Shown piece by piece: positions 34,614-59,701 of a DNA stretch of 64,000 nucleotides. Each line of letters opens with the position of its first letter. The first letter of the stretch is position 1. Under the pieces are notes generated by a model. It was given only the letters and a program-made list of their open reading frames with translations, had not been told where the DNA came from and did no database searches. Location of the stretch: NCBI GenBank assembly GCA_000165345.1, contig CM000431.1, forward strand, positions 128,001 to 192,000, given 5' to 3'. The position numbers were made by a program, and so were the translations under genes.

Positions 34614-36089
34614 TCACTTAATTAAAGAAGTCTTTTTGTTAATAGAGAAGAAGTAGGTAGAGTTGTGGGAGTTCCAACGTTTTGTGTATAATAGTATAAA
34701 TATAGAGAGAATTAAGATGAAGGAATTAATAATAATTGCAATAATAGTTGGAAAGAAGAAGTTATCTTTATAGTTTCTATGAATAAAAGAGTCCCAAAGA
34801 TTGTATACTAAGGTAAAGAATCCTGCAATTGTGGAAGAAATACCTTGAATTGAATTTAAGTGAGTATAACCAAATGCGGAAGTAAAGAGACTGAAGGAAC
34901 ATCCAATAAAGTAGGAATAGCAGAATACACAAATGACAATTCCAAATAAATGTGATAAGAAGCAATACGGAATAAAGTTGGCAAAAAGGACCAAAATTAA
35001 TAGAGAAGATGCAACAAACAAAACCAAAAATAAGTAGATACCCATTAGATCTACAAAGATACCCACTAAAATAGCTGCAATAAATGTAGTTCCAAGCAAA
35101 AGACCAAATATATTTATAATAGATTCAGAGTATTGTAAGTCTCCAGAAGTCTGATCAAGTAGAATTGATTTCATATTGACAGTAAAGTAAAGCCTTACAA
35201 ACCACATTAAAGAGTATATAATAGTAAAAAGAATGGTTGGAATAGAAATAAGCTGCTCTTTGAATGTTAAAGTCCACTGATAAGGAATATCTTCTTTACA
35301 TCTATTAACTTCAACAACCATTTGACTATTAATTAATGAAAGACGCTCCTCATGATCAAATTCAGTAAGAGAGTTCATAATTTGAGATCTGGAAATAGAA
35401 ACTCTTGTACAATAATCAACAGTTGGAGTGACAAAAGGATGTTTAGGAATAATAAAGTAGAATCCAATCATCCAGAGAATTGAAAAGAAACAATTGATAA
35501 TTATAATAAATTGTGTAGGATTAATTCCTAAATAATGGAAATCAATACCTTTAGAAGAAATATAACGAACTAAATTAACCATAATTTGCATATAAGCGAA
35601 ACTCATTCCAACAGAACCTCCCACCATTGCTACAACAAGATGTTTCTTTGAATCATAAAACACAGAAATAGAAGTCTTTGTTAAAGTTAGAAGTTGTGTA
35701 GAAATTCCCCACAAACATATTCCAATATATGGAAAGTAGAACCAAGTTTTATCCAAAAAAAAGCAGAAAATCCATCCCATAATGTGAAATGCTGCTGATA
35801 GAATAGCTGTATTCCTATTATTAAATAAATCCACAAAATAAGCACCCAAAACTCCTGATAATAGAAGTGAAGATGTACCAAGAGAACATAGACTATTCAT
35901 TGTAGTTAGCTTGAAGTCAGGATCTAACCAGTAATAGGCATCGTTATTCATTAATAATTCCTTTACAGCAGATGGCAATAAATATGGTGCTCCCACCATT
36001 GGTGCAGAAACCACATAAAATAATAATAATGTGGTACTGGAAAATCCCGATTTGGTTTGATTCTCACAAGTAAATGGTTTTTCCATCAT
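34614..36089 (-). CDS. Multi-pass membrane transporter, MFS-like. It forms a head-to-head pair with the gene at 36602..38083.
   Basis: 491 aa with about 12 predicted helices. A conserved-looking loop GVLGAYFVDLFNNRNTAIL resembles the MFS/MCT-type G..D.FG.R motif. Its architecture resembles the divergently transcribed neighbour. Confidence 0.5.
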   Translation of the reverse strand: MMEKPFTCENQTKSGFSSTTLLLFYVVSAPMVGAPYLLPSAVKELLMNNDAYYWLDPDFKLTTMNSLCSLGTSSLLLSGVLGAYFVDLFNNRNTAILSAAFHIMGWIFCFFLDKTWFYFPYIGICLWGISTQLLTLTKTSISVFYDSKKHLVVAMVGGSVGMSFAYMQIMVNLVRYISSKGIDFHYLGINPTQFIIIINCFFSILWMIGFYFIIPKHPFVTPTVDYCTRVSISRSQIMNSLTEFDHEERLSLINSQMVVEVNRCKEDIPYQWTLTFKEQLISIPTILFTIIYSLMWFVRLYFTVNMKSILLDQTSGDLQYSESIINIFGLLLGTTFIAAILVGIFVDLMGIYLFLVLFVASSLLILVLFANFIPYCFLSHLFGIVICVFCYSYFIGCSFSLFTSAFGYTHLNSIQGISSTIAGFFTLVYNLWDSFIHRNYKDNFFFPTIIAIIINSFILILSIFILLYTKRWNSHNSTYFFSINKKTSLIK

Positions 36090-36601: not shown

Positions 36602-38083
36602 ATGGCTGGCTCAGAAACGGATAAGCGTAGAGCCTCAGGACGAAGAGGAAGCCTTGAAAGTGGCAGAGGAGATTCTCTTGGGAAAAATTCAAATGAGTCA
36701 AATCCAGGAGTTTTCAGAGAGATGTTCGGAACAAAGGAAAATCCTACAGTTATTCCATTTAAATCCATAATTAAGAATCCAAAGATTTATTTTCCAATTA
36801 TTGCACTTACAGCAACTCTTACAGCAGGTCATATTCAAAATCCAGATGCAACCAGAGAACTATTCTTTAAAAGTGGTGCATTTTCTTTTGCTCCTGAAAT
36901 GCTTGAGTCAGGAGAAGCTTTCTTTACCATCAACAATGTTATGTCCGTTGCTAATGGAGCAGTTTTCATTGGTCATATGATTGCAGGTTCTATAATTGAT
37001 AAATTTGGTTTACTCCCATGTGCATTGGTAGGCCATATTTTGTCTATTTTTGGATATACCTTAATGTTTTTATTACATTTCTCTTCCTATGCATATTATT
37101 TTGCTGGTATATGTTTTGGTATTTCTCTATCATGTACTTTTGCATCCAGATCCAGATTTATGCAGATGTTCCCAAAGGTCAAGAACACTGTTGGAATGCT
37201 TCTCACAATTGGTATGGATTTTTCTCTATTATTCCCCTTACTTCAAGATAAGCTTTCAGAACTCTTTGGTGGTACCAAGATTGTAATGACTAGTATGGTA
37301 ATTATCCAAGCAATAATACTCATTCACCATGCATTTATATTCCCATATGGTAAGCTACCTGATAGAATGGAGTATAAAAACTCTAATAATTCACGTAATC
37401 TTGAAGATGAAACCACTGATCTTATTCAAAAGGATGAAACTGAAGAAATTGAACAAGATGGAATTCAAGGTTACAGAGAACTTTCTTGCATTAGGAAGAT
37501 TTTCTCGCTACCTTTCATTGCCTTCTTTATTTATATGTTATTCTTTGCCTTATCTAGAATTCATTACCAACTCTTCTTCAGAAGTACTTGCTTGATGAAC
37601 ATTAGCGACCAAGTAAGCGCTAAAAAAGCTGCAGATTATGGAAATATTGTATATTCATTAGCATCTTACTTATCTCTTGCTTGGGGTTACATTGTAGATT
37701 ACAATGGACTTATTATTACAATGCAGTACCAAATCGCATTACTTATTGGAGCTTACTTCTGCGCAGGATTCAAGTCTGTGAGCAACATTATCCCTCAAAT
37801 CTTATCCAATGTATTTGCTGGTCTTTATACATGTTTTGCTAATTCTTTAACTTATAGTTTCGTAGCTGGTGTGTTTGGCTACGAAAGCTTTGGTGTTGTA
37901 CAAGGTTTAGCTTCTCTTTCAGCATTTGCTTCACTTATGTCAATCAATTACTGGCAGAACTTCTTGGAGAACGTTTTACAAAGAGATTACAATCTTGCGA
38001 ATAAACTTATCATGTATGCCGCCATTGTAATCCTTGTAATTTTATTCATATTAAGAATGATTTACGTTAGAAAAAGCAAGTAA
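36602..38083 (+). CDS. Multi-pass membrane transporter, MFS-like (probable paralog of 34614..36089).
   Basis: 493 aa with about 12 helices. GSIIDKFGLLPCALVG resembles an MFS/MCT signature. It has a Ser/Arg-rich N-terminal tail and is transcribed divergently from its neighbour off a shared E2F-motif promoter. Confidence 0.5.
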   Translation: MAGSETDKRRASGRRGSLESGRGDSLGKNSNESNPGVFREMFGTKENPTVIPFKSIIKNPKIYFPIIALTATLTAGHIQNPDATRELFFKSGAFSFAPEMLESGEAFFTINNVMSVANGAVFIGHMIAGSIIDKFGLLPCALVGHILSIFGYTLMFLLHFSSYAYYFAGICFGISLSCTFASRSRFMQMFPKVKNTVGMLLTIGMDFSLLFPLLQDKLSELFGGTKIVMTSMVIIQAIILIHHAFIFPYGKLPDRMEYKNSNNSRNLEDETTDLIQKDETEEIEQDGIQGYRELSCIRKIFSLPFIAFFIYMLFFALSRIHYQLFFRSTCLMNISDQVSAKKAADYGNIVYSLASYLSLAWGYIVDYNGLIITMQYQIALLIGAYFCAGFKSVSNIIPQILSNVFAGLYTCFANSLTYSFVAGVFGYESFGVVQGLASLSAFASLMSINYWQNFLENVLQRDYNLANKLIMYAAIVILVILFILRMIYVRKSK

Positions 38084-45487: not shown

Positions 45488-48400
45488 ATGGATGTAATAG
45501 AAGCAGGAGATGTTGTGGAAAAGCCATCTCCAGATGTTTTTCGCTCAAGTAGGCAATTTTTGGACTCTGAGGTGAAGTTAATAGAAGAAATAAAACATAA
45601 TTTTTTGGATACAGTAGGTTATATGGAATTTCGAAAATTTAGCAGAAAACACCAGGGAGTATTTAGAGATGTTGCAAGGGCTTGGACTTTGATTTTGTTA
45701 GTACTTTGTGGATTTTTCTCAAATCTGCTATTTTTTTCTTCATGTCCAAATTTGGGAGATATAGCAGCACATGGGTTGTTTTACAAGGGATATAATTTGA
45801 TAATATTATGCGTTGAAATCGGAATGATAGTGACTACATCATTTTGGCTGCTAATGACTCAGTTCCAGACTGGAGTAGTTTACTCGTTTAGATTGAGCGT
45901 TTTATACACAGCTATTACATTTCTATTATTTATTTTGAGGACAACAATTTCAGATTCAGAAAACTCAACAATTCTACAAAAATGTGACTATATTTTGAGT
46001 AATGGAGAGGTGATCGTTTACAATATAATTCCGCTCATATATATTACGTTACAGTTCTTAATTTCTTTTATTTCATTTTTTTACTCAAAACTGAGACCAA
46101 TCATAGCTGTATATTACTTTAAGCATCCTTGGTTCCTCAAGTCTTGGAAATTTGTAAATATTGAGCCTGTAGAGTTAAAATTACTTTCTTTTGGAAAGAG
46201 GTTTGATGGGAGCAGAAATATTAGTCCAAGAAATACAAGTTCAAAGTATTGTGAAAAAAGCGAGTCAGAGGACAAGACGAGCTCTGAAGGTATGAAAGGA
46301 GGATATTCAAGCGATACAAAAATGTTTTGGGATACGGAAAGTGATAACCAGAATATCAGATTAGCTTCTGGTTATTTCATTGAGATTAAAAGGTTTAGTG
46401 TAAGAAAGCTACTGAAAAAGTTGAATCCGATAAGATTGGATTTGCTTTTAACTTTTAGAACAAGAAAGGATAGAGGTAGAAGACCAAATTCTTTGAAAAA
46501 CCAGGGATGCAGCATAAATAGTTGGTATTTGGGAGAAATTAATGAGGAAGGAAGGCCTCATGGTTTTGGAAGATGGAGGGAGGATGATTACTACGGCGAG
46601 ATTCTCGTTGGGTTTTGGAAGAATGGGCATCCTGTTGGACCATTTAAAACAAGAGAGTGTAGATCAGGGAGTGGCTTTATTTGTTTGAAGCTAGGATTCT
46701 GTCGAACAGAGGCAAATTTGACTCCTAATCTATATGGTTATGCAGATATTGAATGCAGTGTTTCTGGTCAATTCTTTAGAGGGTTTCCTTTATGCCATAT
46801 TTATCCGGCTCCGTCAATAGGAATGAATAGAAGTGGATCAATCTTTGCGAGAATTGGGGCTAAAGGAAAGGCAGCATTAGATGATACAACTCAAAAGGGC
46901 AAGAAAATGGTTGGTGCAGTGTTTAATAGTTCTTGGTTTAAGAAAATAAGGAAAAAGGACAAAGATAAGAAGACCGCATTAGAGAAGAAGGAGAGCATTT
47001 TAGATTCTAAAAAGGTGGTTAGGCTTAATTTAGATAATATTGAAGGTAATAGTGATAAGATGGAGTCAAATGAATTAAATAGTTTATCAATTGATATACC
47101 GTCAGGAAATGAGCAAAATTTAAAGGAAGTAGAACCCAAACTGTCATCAGGGATGTGTAAAAGTGAAATGAATTTAAGCTTACAGAAAAAAGGAGTTCAC
47201 ATGATCCGTAAAGTTAGACAAAAGCTAAGAAGGAACCAAAACAGACAGGACAAGGAGCGTGATTTGTCTCTTCTGTGGGTTTTCCAAAATTTATCCCCAC
47301 ACATTCCGATGTTTACAATCCACCCTAAGAATGAAGTCACTATTTTGGTTGATGCAGAAAGGGGTTTGTATATTGCCGGATACTTTCCAGTATCAGAAGT
47401 ATTACGTTATACAAAACAAACAGGAGCGAGGTTGGCTTTGAGCAACCAGGATCCTGAGAGTTTGCTAAGCGAAAATAACCTAAAGAGTACAATTTTGGGC
47501 CCGAATGATGCCATTAGTGGGCTTATTCCGTTCTCAAGCTCATTTTCGAGCTCCTCCATTATCAAAGCTTCTCAGTATCCTCTAAATAGGCCTCAAGATA
47601 ATAGGTACTTGGAGTCTGTTGAAGTTAGGGTAGTTGATAGATATTGCAATGATTCCGTCTTCTCAAAAGATGCTTTAGATGAAAACCAGGATAATACCGT
47701 ATACTACCCAGAGTTGGAAGTCAAGAATTGGATTCATAGCGATGGACTTCATGCGGCTGAGGCGCTGATATTTATTCATGGGTATAATAACACAATAATG
47801 GATGCTTTAAGGCAAGTTGGACAGATGATTGCTTTTGGAAACTTTCCCTCGTATATAAAACCTATGGTATTTTCTTGGCCATCAGGAAATTCCTTCTTAG
47901 AGTATTTCAAGGCTAGAAAGAGTGCAGAAAGTCCTCACACTCATAATTCACTTTACCAACTCATATTAGGGTTAAAGAATAGAGGAATTCGACATATCCA
48001 CATTATGACTCATTCAATGGGAACTAGATTATTCATCCAGTCGTTCCCTAAGCTTTTATCAGAGAATTTACTTGAAAGATGTGAACAGCATGATCATAGA
48101 TCAAGCATTGATCCTGGAAATTATTTGGGTCTTCGTCATTCTGAGACTCAGTTCGGAGACGAGATTAATCCAATTATTAATGAAAAGGTTCAAATAGTTT
48201 CAATGACTTTCTTGAATCCTGATTATTACTTGGATGACTTTATTAACAAAGCTTTCCCAATGTTAAGGCAATACTGTAATTTAATTACTATGTATGGAGA
48301 TAGCCAAGATGGTGCTCTAAAGTGGAGTGAAATCATTCAGGGTAGGAAAGCTCTCGGCTGCAACGTTTTTGGATTGCATTACGGGACTATTGGGAGCTTT

Positions 48401-49009
48401 AGTAAGAGAATGAAATCTCAAATCAACGATCTTGACCAATATAGAGCTTCTGATGTGGAACTAACCAGTGGCTTGAAGAAGACAGTTTCTACATCAAACA
48501 TGGCCGTCTATGGGGATGAAATCAACTTCTCTTCCAATCAGAAAATAGGAACAACAGGATTAAAATCGGATACGGAAAATCACCCTAATTCTGAGAATAG
48601 AGCTTCACAAGAATCAAAACCAAGAAATGATAGCGCATTATCTCTTATTTACCCTTCTAAGGTCCTAATTAACAGTTTCAACGCCTCTCAAAGTCCCAGG
48701 CAAGGTTCTCCAAGAGCAAGTAGTTCCGGAATTTTGGAGACTTCCAGTCCATATGCAAATAGACATACTCCTGAACAAAGATTCAACTATTTAGATATGG
48801 ATGTAATTGACCAGAGTTTCATTGAACAAAATGTTGGGACAATGCGTCATAATAACTGGAACTTAAACAGAGAAGTCATTGAGGATTTGAGGGAACTGGT
48901 GGTGAGCAGGAAAAGAGCATACCAGAGATCTACCAGGCTAGACAAACGAGAAGGTAATGTTTGGGTCTACAGAATTGCTCCTTCTTGTGTCACTTCCATT
49001 TTCGACTAG
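45488..49009 (+). CDS. Membrane protein with an N-terminal 4-TM block, MORN-like repeats and a C-terminal DUF900-type alpha/beta hydrolase domain.
   Basis: 1173 aa. There are four hydrophobic helices at residues 60-200. GRPHGFGRWREDDYYGEILVGFWKNGHPVGPF is MORN-like. The C-terminal ALIFIHGYNNTIMDALRQVGQMIAFGNFPSYIKPMVFSWPSGNSFLEYF...IRHIHIMTHSMGTRLF matches the PF05990/DUF900 hydrolase pattern (HGYNN...FSWPS...AHSMG, a GxSxG nucleophile elbow). Confidence 0.65.
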   Translation: MDVIEAGDVVEKPSPDVFRSSRQFLDSEVKLIEEIKHNFLDTVGYMEFRKFSRKHQGVFRDVARAWTLILLVLCGFFSNLLFFSSCPNLGDIAAHGLFYKGYNLIILCVEIGMIVTTSFWLLMTQFQTGVVYSFRLSVLYTAITFLLFILRTTISDSENSTILQKCDYILSNGEVIVYNIIPLIYITLQFLISFISFFYSKLRPIIAVYYFKHPWFLKSWKFVNIEPVELKLLSFGKRFDGSRNISPRNTSSKYCEKSESEDKTSSEGMKGGYSSDTKMFWDTESDNQNIRLASGYFIEIKRFSVRKLLKKLNPIRLDLLLTFRTRKDRGRRPNSLKNQGCSINSWYLGEINEEGRPHGFGRWREDDYYGEILVGFWKNGHPVGPFKTRECRSGSGFICLKLGFCRTEANLTPNLYGYADIECSVSGQFFRGFPLCHIYPAPSIGMNRSGSIFARIGAKGKAALDDTTQKGKKMVGAVFNSSWFKKIRKKDKDKKTALEKKESILDSKKVVRLNLDNIEGNSDKMESNELNSLSIDIPSGNEQNLKEVEPKLSSGMCKSEMNLSLQKKGVHMIRKVRQKLRRNQNRQDKERDLSLLWVFQNLSPHIPMFTIHPKNEVTILVDAERGLYIAGYFPVSEVLRYTKQTGARLALSNQDPESLLSENNLKSTILGPNDAISGLIPFSSSFSSSSIIKASQYPLNRPQDNRYLESVEVRVVDRYCNDSVFSKDALDENQDNTVYYPELEVKNWIHSDGLHAAEALIFIHGYNNTIMDALRQVGQMIAFGNFPSYIKPMVFSWPSGNSFLEYFKARKSAESPHTHNSLYQLILGLKNRGIRHIHIMTHSMGTRLFIQSFPKLLSENLLERCEQHDHRSSIDPGNYLGLRHSETQFGDEINPIINEKVQIVSMTFLNPDYYLDDFINKAFPMLRQYCNLITMYGDSQDGALKWSEIIQGRKALGCNVFGLHYGTIGSFSKRMKSQINDLDQYRASDVELTSGLKKTVSTSNMAVYGDEINFSSNQKIGTTGLKSDTENHPNSENRASQESKPRNDSALSLIYPSKVLINSFNASQSPRQGSPRASSSGILETSSPYANRHTPEQRFNYLDMDVIDQSFIEQNVGTMRHNNWNLNREVIEDLRELVVSRKRAYQRSTRLDKREGNVWVYRIAPSCVTSIFD

Positions 49010-49528: not shown

Positions 49529-52500
49529 TTGAGAAAAAGTGAAAAGTGCAGGAAAGAGATAATGAAAGCGTTATTCCTGGCATTTTTAATAATTTTTATA
49601 GGAGGATGGGGTGGGGGAAAGCTGGTTAGAGTGGAATCTTTAAAAACAAGTGCAAAAAGGTATCAAGAAAGAGAAAGGGTTCCATCTCGTTTGCCTCCAC
49701 CAAGAGAAGAACCTCCGGTATTTCAAAGATATTTATATTCCTATCCAAAAGATTATGGTTATTACTTTTTTAATAGAATTAGTGATTCCAATTACTGGGA
49801 TCGTATTAATGGAGAAAATAAGCAAATTCCAATTGAGGGTTGGCAATGGGACAACACATCTAATAATTGGTTATGGGGTCCCTTAAGAAACCAGGATGGT
49901 ACACCATTACTTCCTTTGAGTCCAGAATTAGAAGCTCCAAGAGCTTATGTGGGCCCTACTCGTATTTATGGTCCAATTCAAGTCGATGATTTACCAATTC
50001 CAAGAGTTTTAGATATAATTTGTAAACCTTATGAAAGTTTAATAGGTATTAGAGCATGGTTTCCCAATCCTGAAAGTAAAGGAAGGAAAGATCTACGTGG
50101 GATTCAGTTCTTATGTTCTTCTCCTTTAGATACAAGAGTAAAAGGAGGGTCTAAACATTCAACATGGAGTAGGATTATGGGAAATGTTGGCCCAAATTTG
50201 AAAAAGTACACTGTTTTGACGCGTCCAGAGGATCCTTTTGTCAAAATTAGGGTTTTTGTTGAAACTTTAAACCCAGTAAAGCATCAGTCCCAAAGAGAGT
50301 TAGTTATACCAACCTATCAAGGTCCAAGATTAGTGTATATAGATAATCAAGAAGAAGCATTGGAAAAAGGTCCAATATACCTTATTAGAAGAATAACTTT
50401 GAGAACCAAGAATAATCATCTGAGTTTCTTGGGTAAGGCAGGAGGTAATTTACCTTCAGTTGTAGAGTCTGCTCCAGAAGGATATGAGCTTTCAGGATTC
50501 AGAATCTTGATTTCAGGATATCCAAGAAGTAAATGGAGGGGAGCTGACTTTTCAACTTTGGCATACAGAAACTCCATATCTTTAGGATTTCTCTTCTCAA
50601 AGACTGAGGATATACTGTCTCGTCCTCAAGTTATTTATGGTAGAAGAGGATATGATTTCCAAGATATTAAATGCGATGGGAAGATCACAGGATTACAAGG
50701 ATTTTTTATGGGAAATAGAGGGTTGGTCGGTATTAAAGTTGAATGTGACAGAGTATGGCAGGAAGTTATTTTGGGAATTACAGAAGGAACTGATTATAAG
50801 GCCTTGGTTGGGAGTATGATCAGTGCTGTGACTTTGCATTTATCACCAGAAAAGTTTATCCAAAGTCTGGTGGTATTCTCTACAACAGGTAGACAACAGA
50901 AGTTGGGTGATGATTGGGTTACTCCTACAATAAGATCCTCTAAATCAGAGGGGGGAGGAAGAGGAAAGATTCTACAAGGAATCTTTGCCGAGTTGGACAA
51001 AACTGGAGCTATTTCAGGAATTGGTTTCCATTGGAAGAAGCCTCCAAAGCCGGGTCAGGCTGGGGATAGGGAGGATTATGGTAATTTGGAGGTTTCTGAA
51101 TCTCCCTTGGAAGGAGGAGACACTGGATCACTTGGAAATTCTTCAAAGAAGGAGATTGTTCCAAGAAGCTCCTTCTATGGTAGAGTTGCTAAGGATTGTC
51201 CAATCCTGGAAACCAAATGTCCCACGGGTGTTCCATTGACAGGTCTACGTTTAATTATGAGAAAGGGTGAGACCCAGCCAAAACCCTTTAAAATGTACTT
51301 AGTTTCTTTGTCAATCCAATGTGGAGACGAGTTCTTTAAGCCAGTTGGGAATCCAAATCTAATAGAAGCAGGTAAGAAGAGGACTTATGACATTCTGATT
51401 CATGAAGAGGATCCAGTTGTAGATTTCAGGGTTTATCTTGGTGATCTTGGTCTTCCTCATCTTTTTGATCTTCGTTTCAAACATGATGTATTAAGTAGTT
51501 ATGAATTATATGGATTCAGAGTTGCTATGATGATTAGAAGTGAGAGAATTGGTGCGATTGCTCCTCTTTATAGGGTTGCAACTCCTATTGATTTACCTCC
51601 AATCACTGCAAAAGACATTAGTATTCGTCTATTTGGAGCTGTTAGACCTGAATCTGATCCAGATGTGGTAGTACTTGAAACATCTTGTCCACCTGGAATC
51701 CCTATTACAGCTGTTAGGATGTGGTTTGTAAGGAAGATTGAGGGAAATAATGTTTTCTCTAGGTTAGTTGGTCTTAGAATTCGTTGTGGTTCTAAATGGA
51801 GGAAGACTAAACTTGGAAGTAGTATGGGAGATAGATTTGAAGCTGAAGTGGAATCTGGGGACTTCTTCTCAAGATCCTTTGTTGAGAACCAATCCGAGAA
51901 GCCTTTCTATGTGAGTGGGATAATGCTAGTTACTTTAGAGAATAGAAAGTCATCTTTTGGTGAGACAGGAACAGAAATTATGAAGAAATTGGCATCAGGT
52001 GATGTTGAATCTGAAATATATGGATTTATTGGACAGGAAACACCAGAAGGATTAGTTTCTATTGGGTTCCTTGAGAGAAAAGCAAATTACGATGATTATC
52101 CAACATTTAATGATATTGAAGTGGCTCCATATCAAGTTTCTGCTTCAGATATCCAAGGAGAATCAGAAGGTTCTTTGAATGAGGAAAAGTTAATAGAAAG
52201 CGGAATTGTGAACTTCAGGCCCGGAGAGGAGTGGTTTGGACGTAGAGGATTAGGGGGATCTCATGCAGAAGAGACTTTCTGTGCTCCTGGAAGCAGGTTA
52301 ACTGGTCTTTTGGTACATACTTCAACAAAGATTCCTCATTCGATTATTGGTTTGACTTTAATATGCGATGGCAAGCCATTAAATCCAGTTGGAAGTACTT
52401 TGGGAGATATTGCCAGGTATGAGATTCCAATGAATGAGCCAATAGAAAAGGTTGAAGTTGTATTGAATAAAGAAGATAGATCACTAAGTAGATTAAAACT

Positions 52501-53851
52501 TTTCAATAGAAACCATATGAAAAAGAAGATGGGAAAATTACATGATAGATTCTTGAGTGGATTTGATGTAGAGATTAGAAAAGGAATGATAACAGCTTTA
52601 TCAGCAATATATACTAACTTTGGGGATTCTGGTCCTCCTCCAAAGGTAAGAACAGTACTTGGATCAAATCAAGTAGGGTCAGGTTCAGCCCCAATAACTG
52701 ATAGAAACACTCCATGGGGTCATGCAAATGCAAATGGAGATGTAAGTACTGGAGATGAGTATTCGTGCGAGGAAGGAACAAAACTTACTCAAATAACTAT
52801 GGCTTATAAGAGGAACTCTATAGAACAGAAACAAGAATTAATAGGTTTGAGGATTACTTGTAATGATGAAGATTATGAGCAAGTTGGAATGTGGGATGTT
52901 TCAGATAATAATTATATTCTTGTAGAGGAAACCTTTGGACTGAGGGAAAAAGAGTTTATAATAGCGATAGGAGGAACCAGGATTGATAAGACTCATAGTA
53001 TAGGAAAACTCTATTTTGAGACAAATCTTCTAAGACAGTTTGGGGAATGGCAGCATTATTATGTGGAGGCAAAAACAAGAGGAGATGGGTTGTATGGATT
53101 TGAATTGTTATTTGAGAAGACAGGAGATTATACAACTCCAATAGCAATGCTATTACCATTGTTCAGACCAACTTCAATGGATACAAGGAGTGAAGATTTG
53201 GAAGAGAAGAAATATAAATCTCCATTTGAATTACCAAAAGCAGTAGCAGAGTCATCAGAGGAAGCAAATGAGCAAGAAATGAGAGGAATGTTAAGTTCTC
53301 CAACAATTGTTACAGATTGGATTGGATTGGACATTGGAAGCTTAGAGATGGATGGAATTTGGTGTAAGACTTCAAGGCTAAAGTTGGATGGAAGAATGAC
53401 TTGGGAAGATTGGAGGAACTCAAGAATGACAGGATTGAGAGTATATAATGATGGAGACCACATTAAAGGAATAGCTCTTCAATGTGGGAATTCTTGGTTA
53501 GAGGAGGCAAATCTTGGTCTAGTTGGCCCGAAGTTCCATTTTGATGAAATTAGTGATTGTTTGGAGAGTGATGCTGATTATATAGAGAATATTGAAGTTG
53601 CTATTGATTCTAGAGGTATTCCGGCAGGGTTTAAAGTATTTAGCCACGTTAAGAGGCAGAAGAAAGTTTTAATTAATAATAATTCTATGGTGACTTGGCA
53701 ATCAAATGTTCCAGATTCAGGAAATCACTATGCTTCAGGCATTCATGTTGAATACGACCCTGATACTAATATTATATTCAGAGTTAGAATAGTCTATCGT
53801 CCAATTTCAATTGCAGAAGACCCTGAGGAAAATGTCGGGTTTATATTTTAA
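49529..53851 (+). CDS. Large (1440 aa) secreted protein made of about 8 copies of an unrecognised ~150-aa module marked by a Cys-bracketed hairpin C-x2-G-x2-[IL]-T-G-[LI]-R ... [IL]-x-G-[LI]-x-[IL]-x-C.
   Basis: A signal-peptide-like ALFLAFLIIFIGG follows the internal Met. Repeated segments: CKPYESLIGIRAWF..LRGIQFLC; CDGKITGLQGFF..LVGIKVEC; CPTGVPLTGLRLIM..YLVSLSIQC; CPPGIPITAVRMWF..LVGLRIRC; CAPGSRLTGLLVHT..IIGLTLIC; CEEGTKLTQITMAY..LIGLRITC; CKTSRLKLDGRMTW..IKGIALQC. Cys spacing is 23-36 aa. Confidence 0.6.
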   Translation: MRKSEKCRKEIMKALFLAFLIIFIGGWGGGKLVRVESLKTSAKRYQERERVPSRLPPPREEPPVFQRYLYSYPKDYGYYFFNRISDSNYWDRINGENKQIPIEGWQWDNTSNNWLWGPLRNQDGTPLLPLSPELEAPRAYVGPTRIYGPIQVDDLPIPRVLDIICKPYESLIGIRAWFPNPESKGRKDLRGIQFLCSSPLDTRVKGGSKHSTWSRIMGNVGPNLKKYTVLTRPEDPFVKIRVFVETLNPVKHQSQRELVIPTYQGPRLVYIDNQEEALEKGPIYLIRRITLRTKNNHLSFLGKAGGNLPSVVESAPEGYELSGFRILISGYPRSKWRGADFSTLAYRNSISLGFLFSKTEDILSRPQVIYGRRGYDFQDIKCDGKITGLQGFFMGNRGLVGIKVECDRVWQEVILGITEGTDYKALVGSMISAVTLHLSPEKFIQSLVVFSTTGRQQKLGDDWVTPTIRSSKSEGGGRGKILQGIFAELDKTGAISGIGFHWKKPPKPGQAGDREDYGNLEVSESPLEGGDTGSLGNSSKKEIVPRSSFYGRVAKDCPILETKCPTGVPLTGLRLIMRKGETQPKPFKMYLVSLSIQCGDEFFKPVGNPNLIEAGKKRTYDILIHEEDPVVDFRVYLGDLGLPHLFDLRFKHDVLSSYELYGFRVAMMIRSERIGAIAPLYRVATPIDLPPITAKDISIRLFGAVRPESDPDVVVLETSCPPGIPITAVRMWFVRKIEGNNVFSRLVGLRIRCGSKWRKTKLGSSMGDRFEAEVESGDFFSRSFVENQSEKPFYVSGIMLVTLENRKSSFGETGTEIMKKLASGDVESEIYGFIGQETPEGLVSIGFLERKANYDDYPTFNDIEVAPYQVSASDIQGESEGSLNEEKLIESGIVNFRPGEEWFGRRGLGGSHAEETFCAPGSRLTGLLVHTSTKIPHSIIGLTLICDGKPLNPVGSTLGDIARYEIPMNEPIEKVEVVLNKEDRSLSRLKLFNRNHMKKKMGKLHDRFLSGFDVEIRKGMITALSAIYTNFGDSGPPPKVRTVLGSNQVGSGSAPITDRNTPWGHANANGDVSTGDEYSCEEGTKLTQITMAYKRNSIEQKQELIGLRITCNDEDYEQVGMWDVSDNNYILVEETFGLREKEFIIAIGGTRIDKTHSIGKLYFETNLLRQFGEWQHYYVEAKTRGDGLYGFELLFEKTGDYTTPIAMLLPLFRPTSMDTRSEDLEEKKYKSPFELPKAVAESSEEANEQEMRGMLSSPTIVTDWIGLDIGSLEMDGIWCKTSRLKLDGRMTWEDWRNSRMTGLRVYNDGDHIKGIALQCGNSWLEEANLGLVGPKFHFDEISDCLESDADYIENIEVAIDSRGIPAGFKVFSHVKRQKKVLINNNSMVTWQSNVPDSGNHYASGIHVEYDPDTNIIFRVRIVYRPISIAEDPEENVGFIF

Positions 53852-55184: not shown

Positions 55185-56276
55185 ATGGAGCAAAATTCAA
55201 TTGTTCCATACCACAATGGAAGGAACTATCCTGAATATGGCCAGTTAACAAATTATTATCCTAATAATACAAATAATAATGGGAATGATTCAAAGTCTGC
55301 TCCATATGAGATTCCGGGATGTCCAGTTTTCAGTGTTTTCATAGCGACAGTTGTTGGTATTTTATGGCTCTTCTTTGCATTAACATTACCAGCATACCAT
55401 TATGCAAGAGTAGTTTTTCCAATAGATAATTATATTGACTTAAATTTCGGATTATGGACAGTACATGTTTCTTCAAACTGCGATTCATTCGTTAGTTTTG
55501 ACGCAAATAAGAAGATGTGTAGATTTATAGTTTCAAGAATGGATAATTTAAGTATTTCAGATGCTACAAACTTTATTTGTAGTCTTGAAGCTGGTACATT
55601 ACAACTTTTAAATCTTGGTTGTAATAAATTCCACTTGTTAAGAATTGGTTCATCAGTTATCATGACAATGTTTATTTTATCAATCATATTACTATTCTTT
55701 GCAGCAATCTTTTTATTAACATTTTGGTTCTGTTATCGTACAAGACGTGTGAGACAAAGTATATTTATGCTTCATTTCATTTCAGCATTAACATGCGTTC
55801 TTGGTATTGTTGGATATCTTCTTGTTGGTGGTCTTACTATACAGCCATTTAGAGATTCTTCAATGTTTGGAATAGGTAGTAGTATGTTTGCAAGACTATT
55901 CTTTGTTGATATTTCAAGAACATTTGATTTGTCAACAGGTTTTGCTTTTGCTGCTTTTGGAATGATTTGGATTGTTTTATTACCTTTATGGTCAGTTTGT
56001 GCATTACCATCAGATATTTGTGTGGATGCTATTGAAGTTATTGAGGATACAACATACGAGGAGGAAGAGTTAAAGAAGCTTTTGGGTTATTCAGGACTTT
56101 TTGGACAAAACTATGGTAATGAACAGTCTGCTGCTAATAACTCTTATTATTATCAGAATAATCAAAACCAGAATTATTATAATCATCAATATCCTCAATA
56201 TTATCAGGGCCAACAGAATCATAATCCATATGGGCAACAATATCCTTATTACAATCAACAATATAGAGGTTATTAG
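55185..56276 (+). CDS. Tetraspan (4-TM) membrane protein with a Cys-containing extracellular loop and a Q/N/Y-rich prion-like C-terminal tail.
   Basis: 363 aa. Helices: VFSVFIATVVGILWLFFAL, VIMTMFILSIILLFFAAIFLLTFWF, FISALTCVLGIVGYLLVGGL, AFAAFGMIWIVLLPLWSV. A loop carries 4 Cys. The tail reads NNSYYYQNNQNQNYYNHQYPQYYQGQQNHNPYGQQYPYYNQQYRGY. Confidence 0.5.
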   Translation: MEQNSIVPYHNGRNYPEYGQLTNYYPNNTNNNGNDSKSAPYEIPGCPVFSVFIATVVGILWLFFALTLPAYHYARVVFPIDNYIDLNFGLWTVHVSSNCDSFVSFDANKKMCRFIVSRMDNLSISDATNFICSLEAGTLQLLNLGCNKFHLLRIGSSVIMTMFILSIILLFFAAIFLLTFWFCYRTRRVRQSIFMLHFISALTCVLGIVGYLLVGGLTIQPFRDSSMFGIGSSMFARLFFVDISRTFDLSTGFAFAAFGMIWIVLLPLWSVCALPSDICVDAIEVIEDTTYEEEELKKLLGYSGLFGQNYGNEQSAANNSYYYQNNQNQNYYNHQYPQYYQGQQNHNPYGQQYPYYNQQYRGY

Positions 56277-56389
56277 TTGCAATTTATTTTAACCAAGTAA
56301 TTTGGACATTAAGGTTTCTATTTTTTCAAGGCAAGGCAATTTCTTTCTTTAAAAAGAGAATGTTGCAGCAAAAATTCCGTCTTTACTAT

Positions 56390-57660
56390 GATTCCTACTA
56401 CTTTATTACCACTACTTTTACTACCACTAATATTACTGTTACTACTACTACTACTANTACTAATANTANTATTATTATTATTATTGGTAATACTANTTTC
56501 AANACTATTACCAATGATAATTCAACAAATAGCNTCAGCTGTTTATAGTATTAATATTANTTCAAANCTTTTAATTCCATTNNCANCCATTTTNATCCAT
56601 TNCATTCTCTCTATTCCCCTCTCAANAAGTGGATTTATGTAATAACTTTAATAAGTTCGTTATATATCGAAANATAAATGTGTATAATCNTTGTACTATT
56701 GTTCGAGCATATTAGCAAGAATTATATTAAACTGGAAGAGAAATAGTAGAAGAAGAAAGTANGNATAGAGAATGAGTTAGAATTTGATAGTATGTCCAAG
56801 ATTTAGTTTATATTTCTATATTATACAANTAAAATCTATGAATTTTACTAGTTATTTTTTCTANGNTTATAGTTATTTTAAAGTTAAAATAAAATCTTTT
56901 ACTTGAAAATTTTAACATATCTCATATATTCTATTTGTTTTATNCACNAGATTTACTTTCTNATGTTATATTACTANTCAATTTTTGAAAATGCGAATAT
57001 TNTATTNGATACATGCGATTTGCATGCATCCACATAAATTCNCGNNATACCGTTTAAAGAAATATGGTAATTACGTGTCAATTTTTCTNTTTGAATAATN
57101 TTAATGGTATTTTTAATAGTATTANTATAANTAGTAGAAATTGTATTAAAAATTAGAAATGTTAGTGTGAATAAAGATATTAATANATTATTATTAGTAG
57201 AAATAAGTGGAAAACAAATAGTACTAAAATTGTAATTATTCNGATTAAAATAGTTTTTTTTTTTANTTTTTTAAATAAATAAAAAAACTTAAGTTAAATA
57301 TTAGATTTAATAATTAAATAAATGGGGTGGATACATATAATTTTANTNTTTCTAATCAATAATTTAATGATTAAGNACATGNAAATAAGTGTAGGTTATT
57401 TATTGATTANATTAAATTNTTTNGATAGTTNTTATNTTCANTTCCTNNNNNNANGNNTCTTTAGTAATTGATTTCCAGAAGAGATTTCCTGAAGTTGGAG
57501 TGTTNCGAAAATCTTGATAATTATGGACTCATAGTNCTNTNNTNNNNANTANTATNATTANNATTATCGNCAATATNNTCANGATTNNCCNNCTGTTNNN
57601 GCTCGNATNACNGTNGGTANAACTATTGNCTTNANNTNCATNTNNNANNNGTATATTTAC
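56390..57660. repeat. Low-complexity TAC/ATT microsatellite region containing many N characters (unresolved or low-quality assembly stretch).
   Basis: (tac)n/(att)n runs such as ctactactactantactaatantantattattattatt. Scattered N positions run from about 56457 to 57660, and dense N runs at 57447-57460 and 57540-57650. Confidence 0.7.
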
Positions 57661-59701
57661 AGTATTAGCAGTATCCTCAACTCCAAGTGAACTAACAGCT
57701 AAAGTTGTGGAAAGTCTTAAAATTTCATTTGGATTATTAGAAGCAGTTTCCAATTTAATATATGCAAATAATGAGATATTACTTTGTACTAGATCAATAT
57801 CAATAATAATTTGATTTTTATTTAAAGGAAATAATTCAATTGGAATTTTAAATTTTGAAATAGTACCTACAAAATCATTACTTTTCTTTTTATTTACTAT
57901 TTTATTTTCTCCAATTAATCCTTCTTGATTATTGAAATATTTTTTTATGTTAGTTTGTATAGTTGTAGTTTTTTTATTATTTACATTAATAGCTTTATTA
58001 ATTCCATCTAAAGTAGCTTCCATAAATAATGGTAATTTATTTGTATTCGTATTATGACTAATATGTGGAGCTATATCATCTAATAATTTATTTACCAAAA
58101 TAATTTCGTCTTCATTTAATATTAGAATATATCTCTGTGTTCCATCTTCACTTGATGTTATATTATACATGATAAGATAATTATCTAAATCAAAAGAAAT
58201 TTGTTCTTGTTTTGTTGTGTTAATACTTTCAAGTTTTTGATTATTATAATGGTCATCAATTAAAATATGATGACGTTTTTTATGTGGATTTTTTGTATTG
58301 ATTCCAGTATTATTTACTGAATTTATTTTCATTTGATCTTGATTGGATTGTTCTTCTATTTCATTTTGATTATTTTTTATGATCGTAGAGTTGTTTGAAT
58401 CATTAGTAGTATTTGAAAGAATAGTATTATTAAAGTTATCAAATTGTGTAGAATTTTCTGTAATATTTGTTATAAAGTTTGATTCTTTGAAATATTCCTC
58501 AGTATTATTGTTTAAAGATAAGGCATCTTTTGTTTGATTGGTTACTTTTTCCTGTAAATCTTTGATTTGAAGAAATTCTGAATTTGTTTGAGTATTTTTG
58601 TCCAAGGGTATTCCTCCATTGATCAAATTTCCAATATTTGCAGGAATGGTCGTATTTGCGGTAAAGTTACCAGTTGAAGAGCTTGAATCTTTGATTTCAA
58701 TTTTTTCTTCTTGTTTGTCCTTATTTTCTTTTTTCTCACCCTCCTTTTCTTTCTCACCCTTTTCTTTTCTTTTCATCCTCTTTTTCGGTCTTCTTCTTTT
58801 CTTCTACCTTTTCGTCCATCTCTTTTTTATCCTTTTCTTCCTCCGTTTTCTTTTCGTACTTCTTTTCATTCTCTGCCATCTTTTTATCCTCCACCTTCTT
58901 TTCGTCCTTTTCATTCTCTGTCTTCTTTTCATCTTTCTTTTCATTCTCTGTCTTCTTTTCTTCATCCGTTTTCTTTTCTTCCTCCGTTTTCTTTTCGTCC
59001 TTTTCATTCTCTGCCATCTTTTCATCCTCCACCTTCTTTTCGTCCTTTTCATTATCTGTCTTCTTTTCTTCATCCGTTTTCTTTTCGTCCTTTTCATTCT
59101 CTGCCATCTTTTCATCCTCCACCTTCTTTTTGTACTTTTCATTCTCTGTCTTCTTTCCTTCCTCTACCTTCTTTTTTCTCTCCTTTTCTTCCTCCATTTT
59201 CTTTTCGTCCTTCTCCTTTTCGTCCTTCTTTTCATTCTCTGTCTTCTTTTCATCATCTGTCTTCTTTTCGCTCTTCTCTTTCTCCTTCCCTTGTATTGGG
59301 TTGTATATCTCACTATGTAAATCTATATTTGCAGAATTTTTGATTTCATTTCTCTGATTATTTCTCAGTGATAGTTTTGCCTTAGAAATTGAGGAAGACT
59401 CAGAAATTTGTGTAGAATTATCGTTACTAATCAATGAAAATTCTGTCTTAATATTTAAAACTACTCCCTGTTGTATATTGCTTTTCAACTTTAATATTCT
59501 TCCACTGCATGATTCTCCTATTGTATTAATTTCACAAACTTGATCATTATTTTGCTTTTGAGAATTTTCAATCTCAGCTATTTGATCTTCTGCTAAAATC
59601 TCATAATTCTCCAATCTAACGCTTTCTGATAACCAAACAAAGCTAAATATTACTAAAATAGGAAGAAATAATCTTCCAAACTTAATTATATGCATTTTCA
59701 T
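57529..59701 (-). CDS. Secreted protein with a signal peptide, KE-rich 15-aa tandem repeats and an N/T/S-rich C-terminal region. It is split by an apparent frameshift near 58754-58776, and its 3' end runs into the N-containing gap.
   Basis: Track ORFs 58754..59701(-) and 57529..58776(-) are adjacent, overlap by 23 nt in different frames and share composition (..KKTEKEDEKKRKG* / MKRKEKGEKEKEGEKKENKDK..). The N-terminal MKMHIIKFGRLFLPILVIFSFVWLSESV is a signal peptide. The shift lies in gaaaagaaaagaaaaggg. The downstream ORF ends inside the N-rich region, so the true 3' end is unknown. Confidence 0.5.
58740..59285. repeat. Coding tandem repeat with a 45-bp unit in two alternating variants (90-bp super-unit), encoding EKKVEDEKMAENEKD / EKKTDEEKKTDNEKD on the minus strand.
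   Basis: Repeated ...cgtccttttcattctctgccatcttttcatcctccaccttctttt / cgtccttttcattatctgtcttcttttcttcatccgttttctttt... The plus-strand ORFs 58598..59320, 58711..59343 and 59130..59357, and the minus ORF 58804..59142, are alternate-frame artefacts of this repeat. Confidence 0.75.

What the first reader, a model, noticed from the sequence alone, without database searches (positions are those of the whole stretch)
45488..49009. Unusual fusion: 4-TM anchor, MORN-like repeats and a DUF900 alpha/beta hydrolase in one 1173-aa protein
The C-terminal domain carries the DUF900 hallmarks (FIHGYNN, FSWPSG, HSMG nucleophile elbow). Characterised DUF900 proteins are mostly stand-alone bacterial putative esterases or lipases. 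Here the domain is tethered to membrane-spanning helices and a MORN-like membrane-binding segment. This suggests a membrane-anchored lipid or ester hydrolase.
Basis: partly seen in the sequence, partly recalled or inferred. Interest (0 to 1): 0.55.

Follow-up and report, generated by a model that had tools for sequence, protein, structure and literature searches.

The report
Known membrane-anchored DUF900 hydrolase (QRP1 family)
The ORF is a real Cryptosporidium parvum gene (almost certainly cgd3_590) for a four-helix membrane anchor, a small MORN-like module and a serine hydrolase, but this layout is standard for a widespread protist family already described in malaria parasites (PfQRP1 and PF3D7_0709900).

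Summary
ORF 45488..49009 (+) encodes 1173 aa with four strong hydrophobic segments and a Pfam DUF900 hit (E=1.3e-22, aa 756-955). The motifs FIHGYNN, FSWPSG and HSMG are present.

The "unusual fusion" reading does not hold. The protein is identical to C. parvum Iowa II EAK89202.1/Q5CV20 and is cgd3_590 by gene order. Published figures already list that gene as a homologue of P. falciparum QRP1, which has 4 TM plus a C-terminal alpha/beta hydrolase.

A profile search of 1.84 billion proteins gave 246 relatives at E<=1e-30. Of the best 150, 127 carry the same four conserved blocks in the same order. Of the 107 with at least 150 aa upstream of the module, 99 have 3-4 upstream hydrophobic segments. 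Taxa include coccidia, gregarines, piroplasms, Plasmodium, chromerids, stramenopiles and a green alga.

Ser843, Asp941 and His1121 are 124-125/125 conserved. His1121 lies in a C-terminal block separated from the core by a 130-aa disordered insert.

The MORN-like label is only weakly supported: no Pfam hit, but best fold matches are MORN proteins.

Small additions: the gene groups with the PF3D7_0709900-type Plasmodium paralogue, not QRP1 proper, and the family extends beyond Apicomplexa. Substrate remains inferred, probably a membrane lipid.

The parts
45488..49009 (+). Complete intron-less ORF, 1173 aa plus TAG stop. Identical to C. parvum Iowa II EAK89202.1 / Q5CV20 / CPATCC_001034. Probably cgd3_590.
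   Evidence: gene-order argument
45488..45679 (+). N-terminal hydrophilic region, aa 1-64. No signal peptide. Basic stretch RKFSRKHQGVFRDVAR just before TM1. R49, R53 and G57 are invariant across 18 diverse relatives.
45680..45745 (+). Hydrophobic segment 1 (TM1), aa 65-86
   Evidence: KD peak 2.18; helix in AF2 model
45794..45859 (+). Hydrophobic segment 2 (TM2), aa 103-124
   Evidence: KD peak 2.20; helix 101-127
45878..45943 (+). Hydrophobic segment 3 (TM3), aa 131-152
   Evidence: KD peak 1.83; helix 132-153
46013..46084 (+). Hydrophobic segment 4 (TM4), aa 176-199
   Evidence: KD peak 2.15; helix 180-212
46121..46195 (+). Conserved basic juxtamembrane block KHPWFLKSWKFVNIEPVELKLLSFG, aa 212-236. 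The stretch aa 200-240 holds 8 K+R residues, which supports a cytosolic C-terminal side.
46511..46807 (+). MORN-like beta-hairpin module, aa 342-440. Two recognisable MORN-like units (Y347..W363 and G375-W377..G384), then further hairpins carrying the near-invariant E422-C423-S-V-S-G427 motif. I398 and K401 correspond to the PfQRP1 resistance sites V673 and R676.
   Evidence: PMC11809919
47195..47437 (+). Conserved pre-hydrolase block, aa 570-650: a long helix plus short strands. It also matches in coccidian, gregarine and Plasmodium clade-A relatives. Probably an N-terminal extension of the hydrolase sheet (inference).
47753..48352 (+). DUF900 (PF05990) alpha/beta-hydrolase core, aa 756-955, interrupted by a variable loop at aa 867-898
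48014..48016 (+). Ser843 codon, the nucleophile in T-H-S-M-G. Ser in 124 of 125 family members. G833, ten residues upstream, corresponds to PfQRP1 G1612.
   Evidence: PMC11809919
48308..48310 (+). Asp941 codon, the most likely catalytic acid (124/125 conserved). Neighbouring Asp938 is less conserved (104/125, Asn in 13).
48392..48778 (+). Variable, low-complexity insert predicted disordered, aa 969-1097. It splits the hydrolase domain, and its length differs among Cryptosporidium species.
48779..49006 (+). Conserved C-terminal block, aa 1098-1173. It carries the catalytic His and a basic helix (RELVVSRKRAYQRSTRLDKREGNVWVYR). The Pfam DUF900 model does not cover it.
48848..48850 (+). His1121 codon (N-V-x-x-M-R-H), conserved in 125 of 125 family members. 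Corresponds to PfQRP1 H2047.
   Evidence: PMC11809919

Best explanation
The ORF is the single Cryptosporidium member, almost certainly cgd3_590, of a conserved protist family of polytopic membrane serine hydrolases. The family includes P. falciparum QRP1 (PF3D7_1359900) and its paralogue PF3D7_0709900.

Shown here: four N-terminal hydrophobic helices; a roughly 100-aa MORN-like beta-hairpin module; a DUF900-type alpha/beta-hydrolase core; and a C-terminal block that supplies the catalytic His. These occur in this order across the family. Ser843, Asp941 and His1121 are near-invariant.

Inferred topology: the positive-inside rule and the lack of a signal peptide put both termini in the cytosol. 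The module and the hydrolase then sit at the cytosolic face of the membrane that holds the anchor.

Inferred function: the enzyme cleaves an ester bond, most probably an acyl chain of a membrane glycerophospholipid (phospholipase A/lipase-type chemistry). The MORN-like module would pack beside the active site and help shape or gate substrate access.

Within the family, the C. parvum protein belongs to the clade that holds the PF3D7_0709900-type Plasmodium proteins, coccidian, gregarine and piroplasm-A proteins. It does not belong to the QRP1 clade proper.
For: Identity: the exact sequence equals EAK89202.1/Q5CV20. Four long ORFs separate it from the AMP-binding gene at 61397. That gene fits CpACS1 = cgd3_640, and the next ORF downstream fits DG1 = cgd3_600. 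cgd3_590 is listed as a PfQRP1 homologue.

Family and architecture: 246 relatives at E<=1e-30. 127 of 150 have all four blocks in order, and 99 of 107 have 3-4 upstream hydrophobic segments. Named members are Besnoitia, Blabericola, Plasmodium, Theileria, Babesia, Cardiosporidium, Vitrella, Chromera, Triparma, Phytophthora and Ostreobium.

Lipid link: the archaeal phospholipase A cinquedea has mostly DUF900 homologues and resembles the same hornet PLA1. PfQRP1 loss of function, including D1829A, protects against compounds whose likely target is the lipid flippase PfATP2.

Clade: NJ tree gives clade A 72% and clade B 100% bootstrap. HMM scores are 494 bits against clade A and 323 against clade B. 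Clade B holds TpMuguga_02g02080 and reproduces the PfQRP1 landmarks.

Topology: K+R counts are 11 before TM1 and 8 after TM4, against 1 in each loop.
Against: No enzymatic activity has been shown for any member of this eukaryotic family. Neither P. falciparum DUF900 protein was captured by fluorophosphonate activity-based profiling (Table 1 of PMC9464883).

Topology rests only on hydropathy and charge, and the TM helices have low pLDDT of 45-57. No coordinates were available, so triad geometry and module-hydrolase packing were not measured in my model. The packing statement is borrowed from the PfQRP1 AlphaFold description.

Clade A support is only 72% in a distance tree. I never obtained the P. 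falciparum sequences themselves, so QRP1 was assigned to clade B through P. ovale and T. parva proxies. The gene identifier cgd3_590 is inferred from gene order, not read from an annotation.
Confidence: 0.72

Rival explanations
1. The gene is the strict one-to-one orthologue of PfQRP1, as labelled in the published figures. It would share QRP1's dispensable, drug-susceptibility-modifying role.
For: PMC10224993 suppl. Fig. 5 and PMC11809919 Fig. 3 list cgd3_590 among 'orthologs' of PfQRP1. If the A/B duplication happened within the Hematozoa lineage and clade B then evolved fast, Cryptosporidium would be co-orthologous to both. Clade A support is only 72%.
Against: Distance to Plasmodium clade A is 0.68, against 0.91 to clade B. 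HMM scores are 494 against 323 bits. The Cryptosporidium profile aligns the TM region of clade-A Plasmodium proteins but not of clade-B ones. Piroplasms carry both clades, and one transcriptome (GHVS01) has both a Cryptosporidium-like member and a clade-B member. The split therefore looks older than Plasmodium.
Confidence: 0.2
2. It is a membrane-tethered esterase or thioesterase acting on non-lipid substrates. Candidates are small-molecule esters (as for the prodrug esterase PfPARE) or S-acylated proteins (depalmitoylase).
Against: The top neighbours and the PDB sequence matches lean towards lipases and phospholipases: RavL, PLA1, PLRP2, RP2 lipase. The only biochemically tested DUF900-related enzyme in the library is a phospholipase A. 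A permanent 4-TM anchor and the genetic link to a phospholipid flippase fit a membrane-lipid substrate better.
Confidence: 0.2
3. It is a catalytically inert scaffold or regulator, for example of a P4-ATPase flippase, that merely retains a hydrolase fold.
For: No activity has ever been shown, and there was no ABPP labelling in P. falciparum. PMC12588512 raises possible regulation of PfATP2.
Against: Ser, Asp and His are conserved in 124-125 of 125 diverse members. Pseudoenzymes usually lose such residues. In PfQRP1, D1829A phenocopies truncation.
Confidence: 0.05
4. It is a lineage-specific, unusual domain fusion, or an artefact that joins two neighbouring genes.
For: The Pfam DUF900 description and the review PMC11878206 describe DUF900 mainly as a bacterial stand-alone family. 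Long disordered linkers separate the parts.
Against: The full-length ORF is conserved in at least 8 Cryptosporidium species. The same block order occurs in 127 of 150 representative relatives from many phyla. The architecture is already published for Plasmodium.
Confidence: 0.02

Closest known systems
PfQRP1, quinoxaline resistance protein 1 (PF3D7_1359900)
   Same: Four N-terminal TM segments. The same conserved module between anchor and hydrolase: Pf V673/R676 correspond to Cp I398/K401. A C-terminal DUF900-type hydrolase with a Ser-Asp-His triad: Pf S1622/D1829/H2047 correspond to Cp S843/D941/H1121, and Pf G1612 corresponds to Cp G833. C. parvum cgd3_590 is listed as its homologue.
   Different: PfQRP1 is 2126 aa, with long low-complexity inserts and about 200 aa between Ser and Asp, against 98 aa here. 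By my proxies it falls in clade B (nucleophile motif HSCG, His motif NVDFLKH), while C. parvum is in clade A. Nothing is known about quinoxaline susceptibility in Cryptosporidium.
PF3D7_0709900 and its Plasmodium orthologues (P. relictum CRG98430.1, P. vinckei EUD72468.1), assigned by elimination
   Same: Described as '4 TMs, alpha/beta-hydrolase', with Duf_900 sub-family. The clade-A Plasmodium proteins are the closest Plasmodium relatives of the C. parvum protein. They share the HSMG and NVHxxRH motifs, short Ser-Asp spacing, and an alignable TM region.
   Different: About 1900-2300 aa, against 1173. The link between clade-A proteins and the identifier PF3D7_0709900 rests on P. falciparum having only two Duf_900 hydrolases, not on the sequence itself. 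It is scored essential in the P. falciparum piggyBac screen. Essentiality in Cryptosporidium is unknown.
Bacterial and archaeal stand-alone DUF900 (PF05990) proteins, including homologues of the archaeal phospholipase A 'cinquedea'
   Different: The prokaryotic proteins are short and secreted, or have at most one N-terminal helix. They lack the 4-TM anchor and the MORN-like module. In the C. parvum protein the C-terminal third of the Pfam profile (positions 182-232) is not matched, and the His sits in a family-specific block after a 130-aa insert.
MORN-repeat proteins (PF02493; TbMORN1, TgMORN1, PfMORN1, junctophilin, radial-spoke RSP1/RSP10)
   Same: A Gly/aromatic pattern of the Y-x-G-x-W-x-x-G-x-x-x-G type and a predicted antiparallel beta-hairpin array. 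Foldseek's best PDB matches for the isolated module are almost all MORN proteins: probability up to 1.00, about 20% identity over 80-90 columns.
   Different: No Pfam MORN hit for this protein, and 2 of 30 relatives hit at E>=0.034. Fold E-values are 0.026 or worse, with TM about 0.35. Only about two recognisable units are present rather than a long tandem array. The second half of the module carries a family-specific E-C-S-V-S-G motif.

Membership tests
Pfam DUF900 (PF05990) alpha/beta hydrolases | Score above the curated gathering threshold | tested here: met
   80.9 bits against a cut-off of 20.5, E=1.3e-22, aa 756-955. 30 of 30 relatives also hit.
Pfam DUF900 (PF05990) alpha/beta hydrolases | Nucleophile elbow (small-x-Ser-x-Gly) with a conserved Ser | tested here: met
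   T-H-S843-M-G. Ser in 124/125 and Gly845 in 123/125 family members.
Pfam DUF900 (PF05990) alpha/beta hydrolases | Complete Ser-Asp-His triad | tested here: met
   D941 124/125 and H1121 125/125 by conservation. The positions correspond to the published PfQRP1 triad. Three-dimensional geometry was not measurable because no coordinates were returned.
Pfam DUF900 (PF05990) alpha/beta hydrolases | Alpha/beta-hydrolase fold | tested here: met
Pfam DUF900 (PF05990) alpha/beta hydrolases | Full-length match to the Pfam profile, including its C-terminal part | tested here: not met
   Only profile positions 18-181 of 232 align, even when the insert is removed. The His-bearing block is divergent.
QRP1-like 4TM-DUF900 family (PfQRP1 / PF3D7_0709900) | Four N-terminal transmembrane segments | tested here: met
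   Four Kyte-Doolittle peaks of 1.83-2.20 and four helices in AF2. No dedicated TM predictor was available.
QRP1-like 4TM-DUF900 family (PfQRP1 / PF3D7_0709900) | Conserved module between anchor and hydrolase that carries the V673/R676-equivalent positions | tested here: met
   The module is present in 133 of 150 relatives. Cp I398/K401 align with V/R of the P. ovale clade-B protein.
QRP1-like 4TM-DUF900 family (PfQRP1 / PF3D7_0709900) | C-terminal hydrolase with the triad, and sequence homology to named members | tested here: met
   E=1e-107 to 1e-129 to Plasmodium, Besnoitia and gregarine proteins. T. parva TpMuguga_02g02080 is in the same family.
QRP1-like 4TM-DUF900 family (PfQRP1 / PF3D7_0709900) | Strict orthology to PfQRP1 (clade B) | tested here: not met
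   The NJ tree places Cryptosporidium in clade A (72%) and QRP1 proxies in clade B (100%). HMM scores are 494 against 323 bits. This is a distance method only and used no P. falciparum sequence.
QRP1-like 4TM-DUF900 family (PfQRP1 / PF3D7_0709900) | Loss of function lowers quinoxaline susceptibility | not testable with these tools
   Requires genetics and drug assays in C. parvum.
MORN repeat (PF02493) | Pfam MORN hit at or near threshold | tested here: not met
   No hit at E<=10 for the whole protein or for the 191-aa segment. 2 of 30 relatives hit, best E=0.034.
MORN repeat (PF02493) | Beta-hairpin repeat fold resembling solved MORN arrays | tested here: inconclusive
   AF2 of the module gives pLDDT 75.8 and six strands. 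Top Foldseek hits are MORN proteins, but with E>=0.026 and TM 0.33-0.38.
MORN repeat (PF02493) | Tandem array of several units of about 23 aa | tested here: not met
   Only about two units are recognisable by eye (Y347-W363 and G375-G384). The remainder is family-specific.

The most novel reading that the evidence does not exclude
The 4TM / MORN-like / split-DUF900 protein may be an ancient, pan-SAR (and green-algal) membrane phospholipase. Its MORN-like module would gate the active site, and it would work in the same lipid-asymmetry pathway as P4-ATPase flippases. Cryptosporidium keeps only the clade-A copy, the orthologue of the Plasmodium paralogue scored essential (PF3D7_0709900). It would then be a single-copy, possibly essential and druggable serine hydrolase, rather than a dispensable resistance modifier like QRP1.
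Probability: 0.15. Interest if true: 0.55.

Novelty: already known. Interest (0 to 1): 0.2.

Why it matters
As a discovery it matters little. The gene is annotated, its architecture is the family norm, and the literature already names it as a QRP1 homologue.

Three by-products could interest apicomplexan biologists:

1. The family is not confined to Apicomplexa, contrary to the statement in PMC10224993. The same architecture occurs in chromerids, stramenopiles and a green alga.

2. Hematozoa carry two old paralogues. The Cryptosporidium and coccidian genes called 'QRP1 orthologues' group instead with the other paralogue, which is scored essential in the P. falciparum piggyBac screen. This affects how QRP1 findings are carried over to other parasites.

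3. The conserved MORN-like module holds the positions equivalent to two PfQRP1 resistance mutations. This gives a concrete structural hypothesis for them.

Tried and rejected
- NCBIfam gave no hit. A phmmer search of PDB sequences gave none. A family profile against PDB gave only weak lipase and serine-hydrolase matches, best E=3e-4.
- Pfam on isolated segments (aa 1-240, 290-480, 566-740, 1080-1173) found nothing, including no MORN.
- The word-indexed protein search retrieved only Cryptosporidium plus one alga with the single sequence. It gave nothing new with an 18-sequence full-length alignment, because low-complexity Plasmodium words saturated the candidate list. With a 30-sequence conserved-block alignment it returned 24 mostly short proteins and no P. 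falciparum entry. I therefore never obtained the PfQRP1 or PF3D7_0709900 sequences. I assigned them to clades through published residue landmarks, the P. ovale proxy and the T. parva locus tag.
- The afdb50 fold library was unavailable.
- hmmalign in global mode recovered all blocks in only 29 proteins and was replaced by per-block HMM searches.
- Literature searches for Q5CV20, EAK89202, CPATCC_001034 and TGME49_289880 returned only the two quinoxaline papers, through the last term; the three identifiers of this protein occur in no paper.
- I considered an artefactual gene fusion and a Cryptosporidium-specific fusion, and rejected both on conservation.


Full report
**1. What is in the sequence**

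The window is AT-rich, about 19-39% GC. It holds a long ORF at 45488..49009 on the + strand: ATG start, TAG stop, 1173 aa. An exact-sequence look-up shows the product is identical to Cryptosporidium parvum Iowa II EAK89202.1 / UniProt Q5CV20 / CPATCC_001034, annotated 'hypothetical protein'. The window is therefore C. parvum DNA.

Full-length orthologues exist in C. meleagridis, C. hominis, C. tyzzeri, chipmunk genotype I, C. ubiquitum, C. felis, C. xiaoi, C. ryanae and C. muris. Identities range from 96% down to 58%, all at 100% coverage. The alignment shows conserved blocks separated by variable, low-complexity linkers. The first residues are invariant. The gene model is sound.

**2. Check of each claimed element**

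*DUF900.* Pfam finds only PF05990: 80.9 bits against a cut-off of 20.5, E=1.3e-22, aa 756-955. The motifs FIHGYNN (762-768), FSWPSG (795-800) and HSMG (842-845) are present.

*Transmembrane segments.* Four segments exceed a Kyte-Doolittle mean of 1.6 over 19 residues, at about 65-86, 103-124, 131-152 and 176-199. No other part of the protein does. AF2 models four helices there, with low confidence. Basic residues cluster before TM1 (11 K+R) and after TM4 (8 K+R), and the loops hold one each. With no signal peptide, the positive-inside rule puts both termini, and so the catalytic part, in the cytosol. This topology is an inference.

*MORN-like segment.* It gives no Pfam MORN hit, even at E<=10 on the isolated segment. 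Across 30 diverse relatives only 2 give weak MORN hits, best E=0.034. The segment aa 342-440 is nevertheless the most strongly conserved non-catalytic part of the family. Y347, G349, P357, G359, G361, W363, G370, E371, G375, W377, G380, P385, E422, C423, G427 and P434 are invariant or nearly so. AF2 predicts a beta-hairpin array: six strands when modelled alone, at pLDDT 75.8. Foldseek against the PDB returns almost only MORN-repeat proteins at the top: axonemal MORN proteins, TbMORN1, TgMORN1, PfMORN1 and junctophilin-2. Identity is about 20% over 80-90 columns, but E-values are no better than 0.026 and TM scores are about 0.35. 'MORN-like' is a fair description of the fold, but membership of the MORN family is not established.

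**3. The hydrolase domain is split**

The Pfam match stops at profile position about 181 of 232. A 130-aa variable stretch, aa 969-1097, follows and is predicted disordered. After it comes a highly conserved C-terminal block, aa 1098-1173, with the motif N-V-x-x-M-R-H.

Across 125 family members, Ser843 is conserved in 124, Asp941 in 124, His1121 in 125, and Asp938 in only 104. The likely triad is therefore Ser843/Asp941/His1121. The published PfQRP1 triad is S1622/D1829/H2047. Its landmarks fit this mapping in a P. ovale relative: Gly ten residues before the Ser, and Asp at catalytic Asp +34.

**4. The fusion is not unusual**

A profile of the eight Cryptosporidium sequences was searched against 1.84 billion representative proteins. 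It gave 2862 hits at E<=1e-3 and 246 at E<=1e-30.

I re-scored the best 150 with per-block HMMs:
- 127 contain the module, both halves of the hydrolase core and the C-terminal block, in the same order.
- 133 contain the module.
- Of the 107 with at least 150 residues upstream of the module, 99 have three or four hydrophobic segments there, and 66 have four.

Named members come from Besnoitia, the gregarines Blabericola and Polyplicarium, Plasmodium, Theileria, Babesia, Cardiosporidium and Eimeria. Outside Apicomplexa they come from Vitrella, Chromera, the stramenopiles Triparma and Phytophthora, and the green alga Ostreobium. Vitrella, Chromera, Triparma and Ostreobium each show four hydropathy peaks (at a laxer threshold of 1.4; one peak in Ostreobium and one in Triparma is weak, about 1.4), the two Phytophthora models two. 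The architecture is thus the ancestral state of a widespread family.

**5. It is already in the literature**

- P. falciparum has two 'Duf_900' serine hydrolases, PF3D7_0709900 and PF3D7_1359900 (PMC9464883).
- PF3D7_1359900 was named quinoxaline resistance protein 1 (QRP1). It is 2126 aa, with four predicted TM segments and a C-terminal hydrolase carrying a Ser-Asp-His triad. Point mutations, a frameshift, D1829A and a stop codon all give low-level resistance to quinoxalines. Their probable target is the flippase PfATP2 (PMC10224993, PMC11809919, PMC12588512).
- Both QRP1 papers list C. parvum cgd3_590 among the homologues.

I could not read an annotation, but gene order fits. The AMP-binding enzyme at 61397..63454 matches CpACS1 = cgd3_640. 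Exactly four long ORFs lie between it and the target ORF. The next ORF downstream would then be cgd3_600, the dense-granule protein DG1. Only one Cryptosporidium protein family appeared in any search.

**6. A refinement: which Plasmodium paralogue?**

The profile search found two Plasmodium groups.

*Group A* (P. relictum, P. vinckei) scores 370-376 bits. It aligns over the TM region as well. It has HSMG, N-V-H-x-L-R-H and 72 residues from the Ser to the first Asp of the D-x-x-D motif (75 to the second, the spacing compared with PfQRP1 below).

*Group B* (P. ovale and others) scores about 235 bits. It has HSCG, N-V-D-F-L-K-H and about 200 residues between Ser and Asp.

The published PfQRP1 landmarks fit group B and not group A:
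- V-x-x-R in the module (V673/R676).
- Gly at Ser-10.
- Ser-Asp spacing of 207, against 205 in P. ovale.
- Asp at catalytic Asp +34.

Group B also contains T. parva TpMuguga_02g02080, the gene the QRP1 papers list.

I built a neighbour-joining tree on 299 conserved columns with 200 bootstraps. It gives a clade A at 72% support, containing Cryptosporidium, Besnoitia, gregarines, piroplasm-A proteins and Plasmodium group A. It gives a clade B at 100% support, containing Plasmodium group B, Theileria, Cardiosporidium and one transcriptome sequence.

HMMs built without Cryptosporidium score the C. parvum blocks at 494 bits (clade A), 323 (clade B), 415 (chromerids) and 399 (all others).

By elimination, clade-A Plasmodium proteins should be PF3D7_0709900, which is scored essential in the piggyBac screen. 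The C. parvum gene is therefore a homologue of QRP1 but more probably the orthologue of its paralogue. This rests on distance methods and proxies and needs a proper tree.

**7. How it most likely works**

*Shown:* a polytopic anchor, a conserved beta-hairpin module, and a hydrolase with a near-invariant triad.

*Inferred:* cytosolic orientation, and ester hydrolysis of a membrane lipid. The lipid inference rests on the lipase/PLA1-like neighbours, on the archaeal phospholipase A cinquedea whose homologues are mostly DUF900, and on the genetic link between QRP1 and a phospholipid flippase. A further inference is that the module lies next to the active site. The two PfQRP1 resistance sites that map into it (Cp I398 and K401) are reported close to the triad in the PfQRP1 AlphaFold model.

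No enzymatic activity has been shown for any eukaryotic member, and neither P. falciparum protein was captured by activity-based profiling. The substrate therefore remains open. A thioesterase or small-ester esterase role is a real alternative.

**8. Verdict**

The functional guess is reasonable. The claim of an unusual fusion is wrong. This is a known gene of a known family, so interest is low. The useful by-products are the wider taxonomic range, the paralogue assignment, and the recognition of the MORN-like module as a family hallmark.

Noticed in passing
window 49529..53851 (+): A 1440-aa ORF lies directly downstream. By position it is cgd3_600, the dense-granule protein DG1 (PMC12407990). 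It has no Pfam hit. At least four copies of an E-[TY]-x-C-x-x-G-x-x-[LI]-T motif are spaced about 160 aa apart (aa 564, 720, 918, 1080), suggesting an uncharacterised repeated domain. The listed TTG start is probably wrong: an ATG 11 codons later gives MKALFLAFLIIFIGG, which looks like a signal peptide.
   Followed up: partly
window 61397..63454 (+): A 685-aa AMP-binding enzyme (PF00501, E=4e-54) fits CpACS1 = cgd3_640, a fatty acyl-CoA synthetase reported as inhibited by triacsin C. I used it only as a positional landmark.
   Followed up: partly
window 34614..36089 (-) and 36602..38083 (+): Two divergently oriented ORFs of about 490 aa have weak Major Facilitator Superfamily matches below the Pfam gathering score (25 and 32 bits against 33.4). 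They may be a pair of divergent transporters.
   Followed up: no
window 27559..34416 (+): A 2285-aa ORF has no Pfam match at E<=0.001.
   Followed up: no
window 56001..62000: GC content falls to 19-28% here, against 29-39% in the rest of the window before 56 kb. AT skew is strongly negative at 58-60 kb.
   Followed up: no
window 57529..58776 (-) and 58754..59701 (-): Two minus-strand ORFs (415 and 315 aa) overlap by 23 nt. They may be two genes, or one gene with a frameshift or intron. I counted them as two genes (cgd3_620 and cgd3_630) in the positional argument.
   Followed up: no
related proteins P0022, P0025, P0043, P0008, P0174, P0177: PMC10224993 states that QRP1 has evident orthologues only within Apicomplexa. 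The same module plus split-DUF900 layout occurs in Vitrella, Chromera, Triparma (stramenopile), Phytophthora and Ostreobium (green alga). The first three and Ostreobium also have the four upstream hydrophobic segments; the two Phytophthora models show only two.
   Followed up: partly
related proteins P0028, P0029, P0194 against P0044, P0190: Piroplasms carry both paralogue types. Clade A is found in Theileria equi, Babesia duncani and B. microti. Clade B is found in T. orientalis and T. parva. The A/B duplication therefore predates the Plasmodium-piroplasm split.
   Followed up: partly
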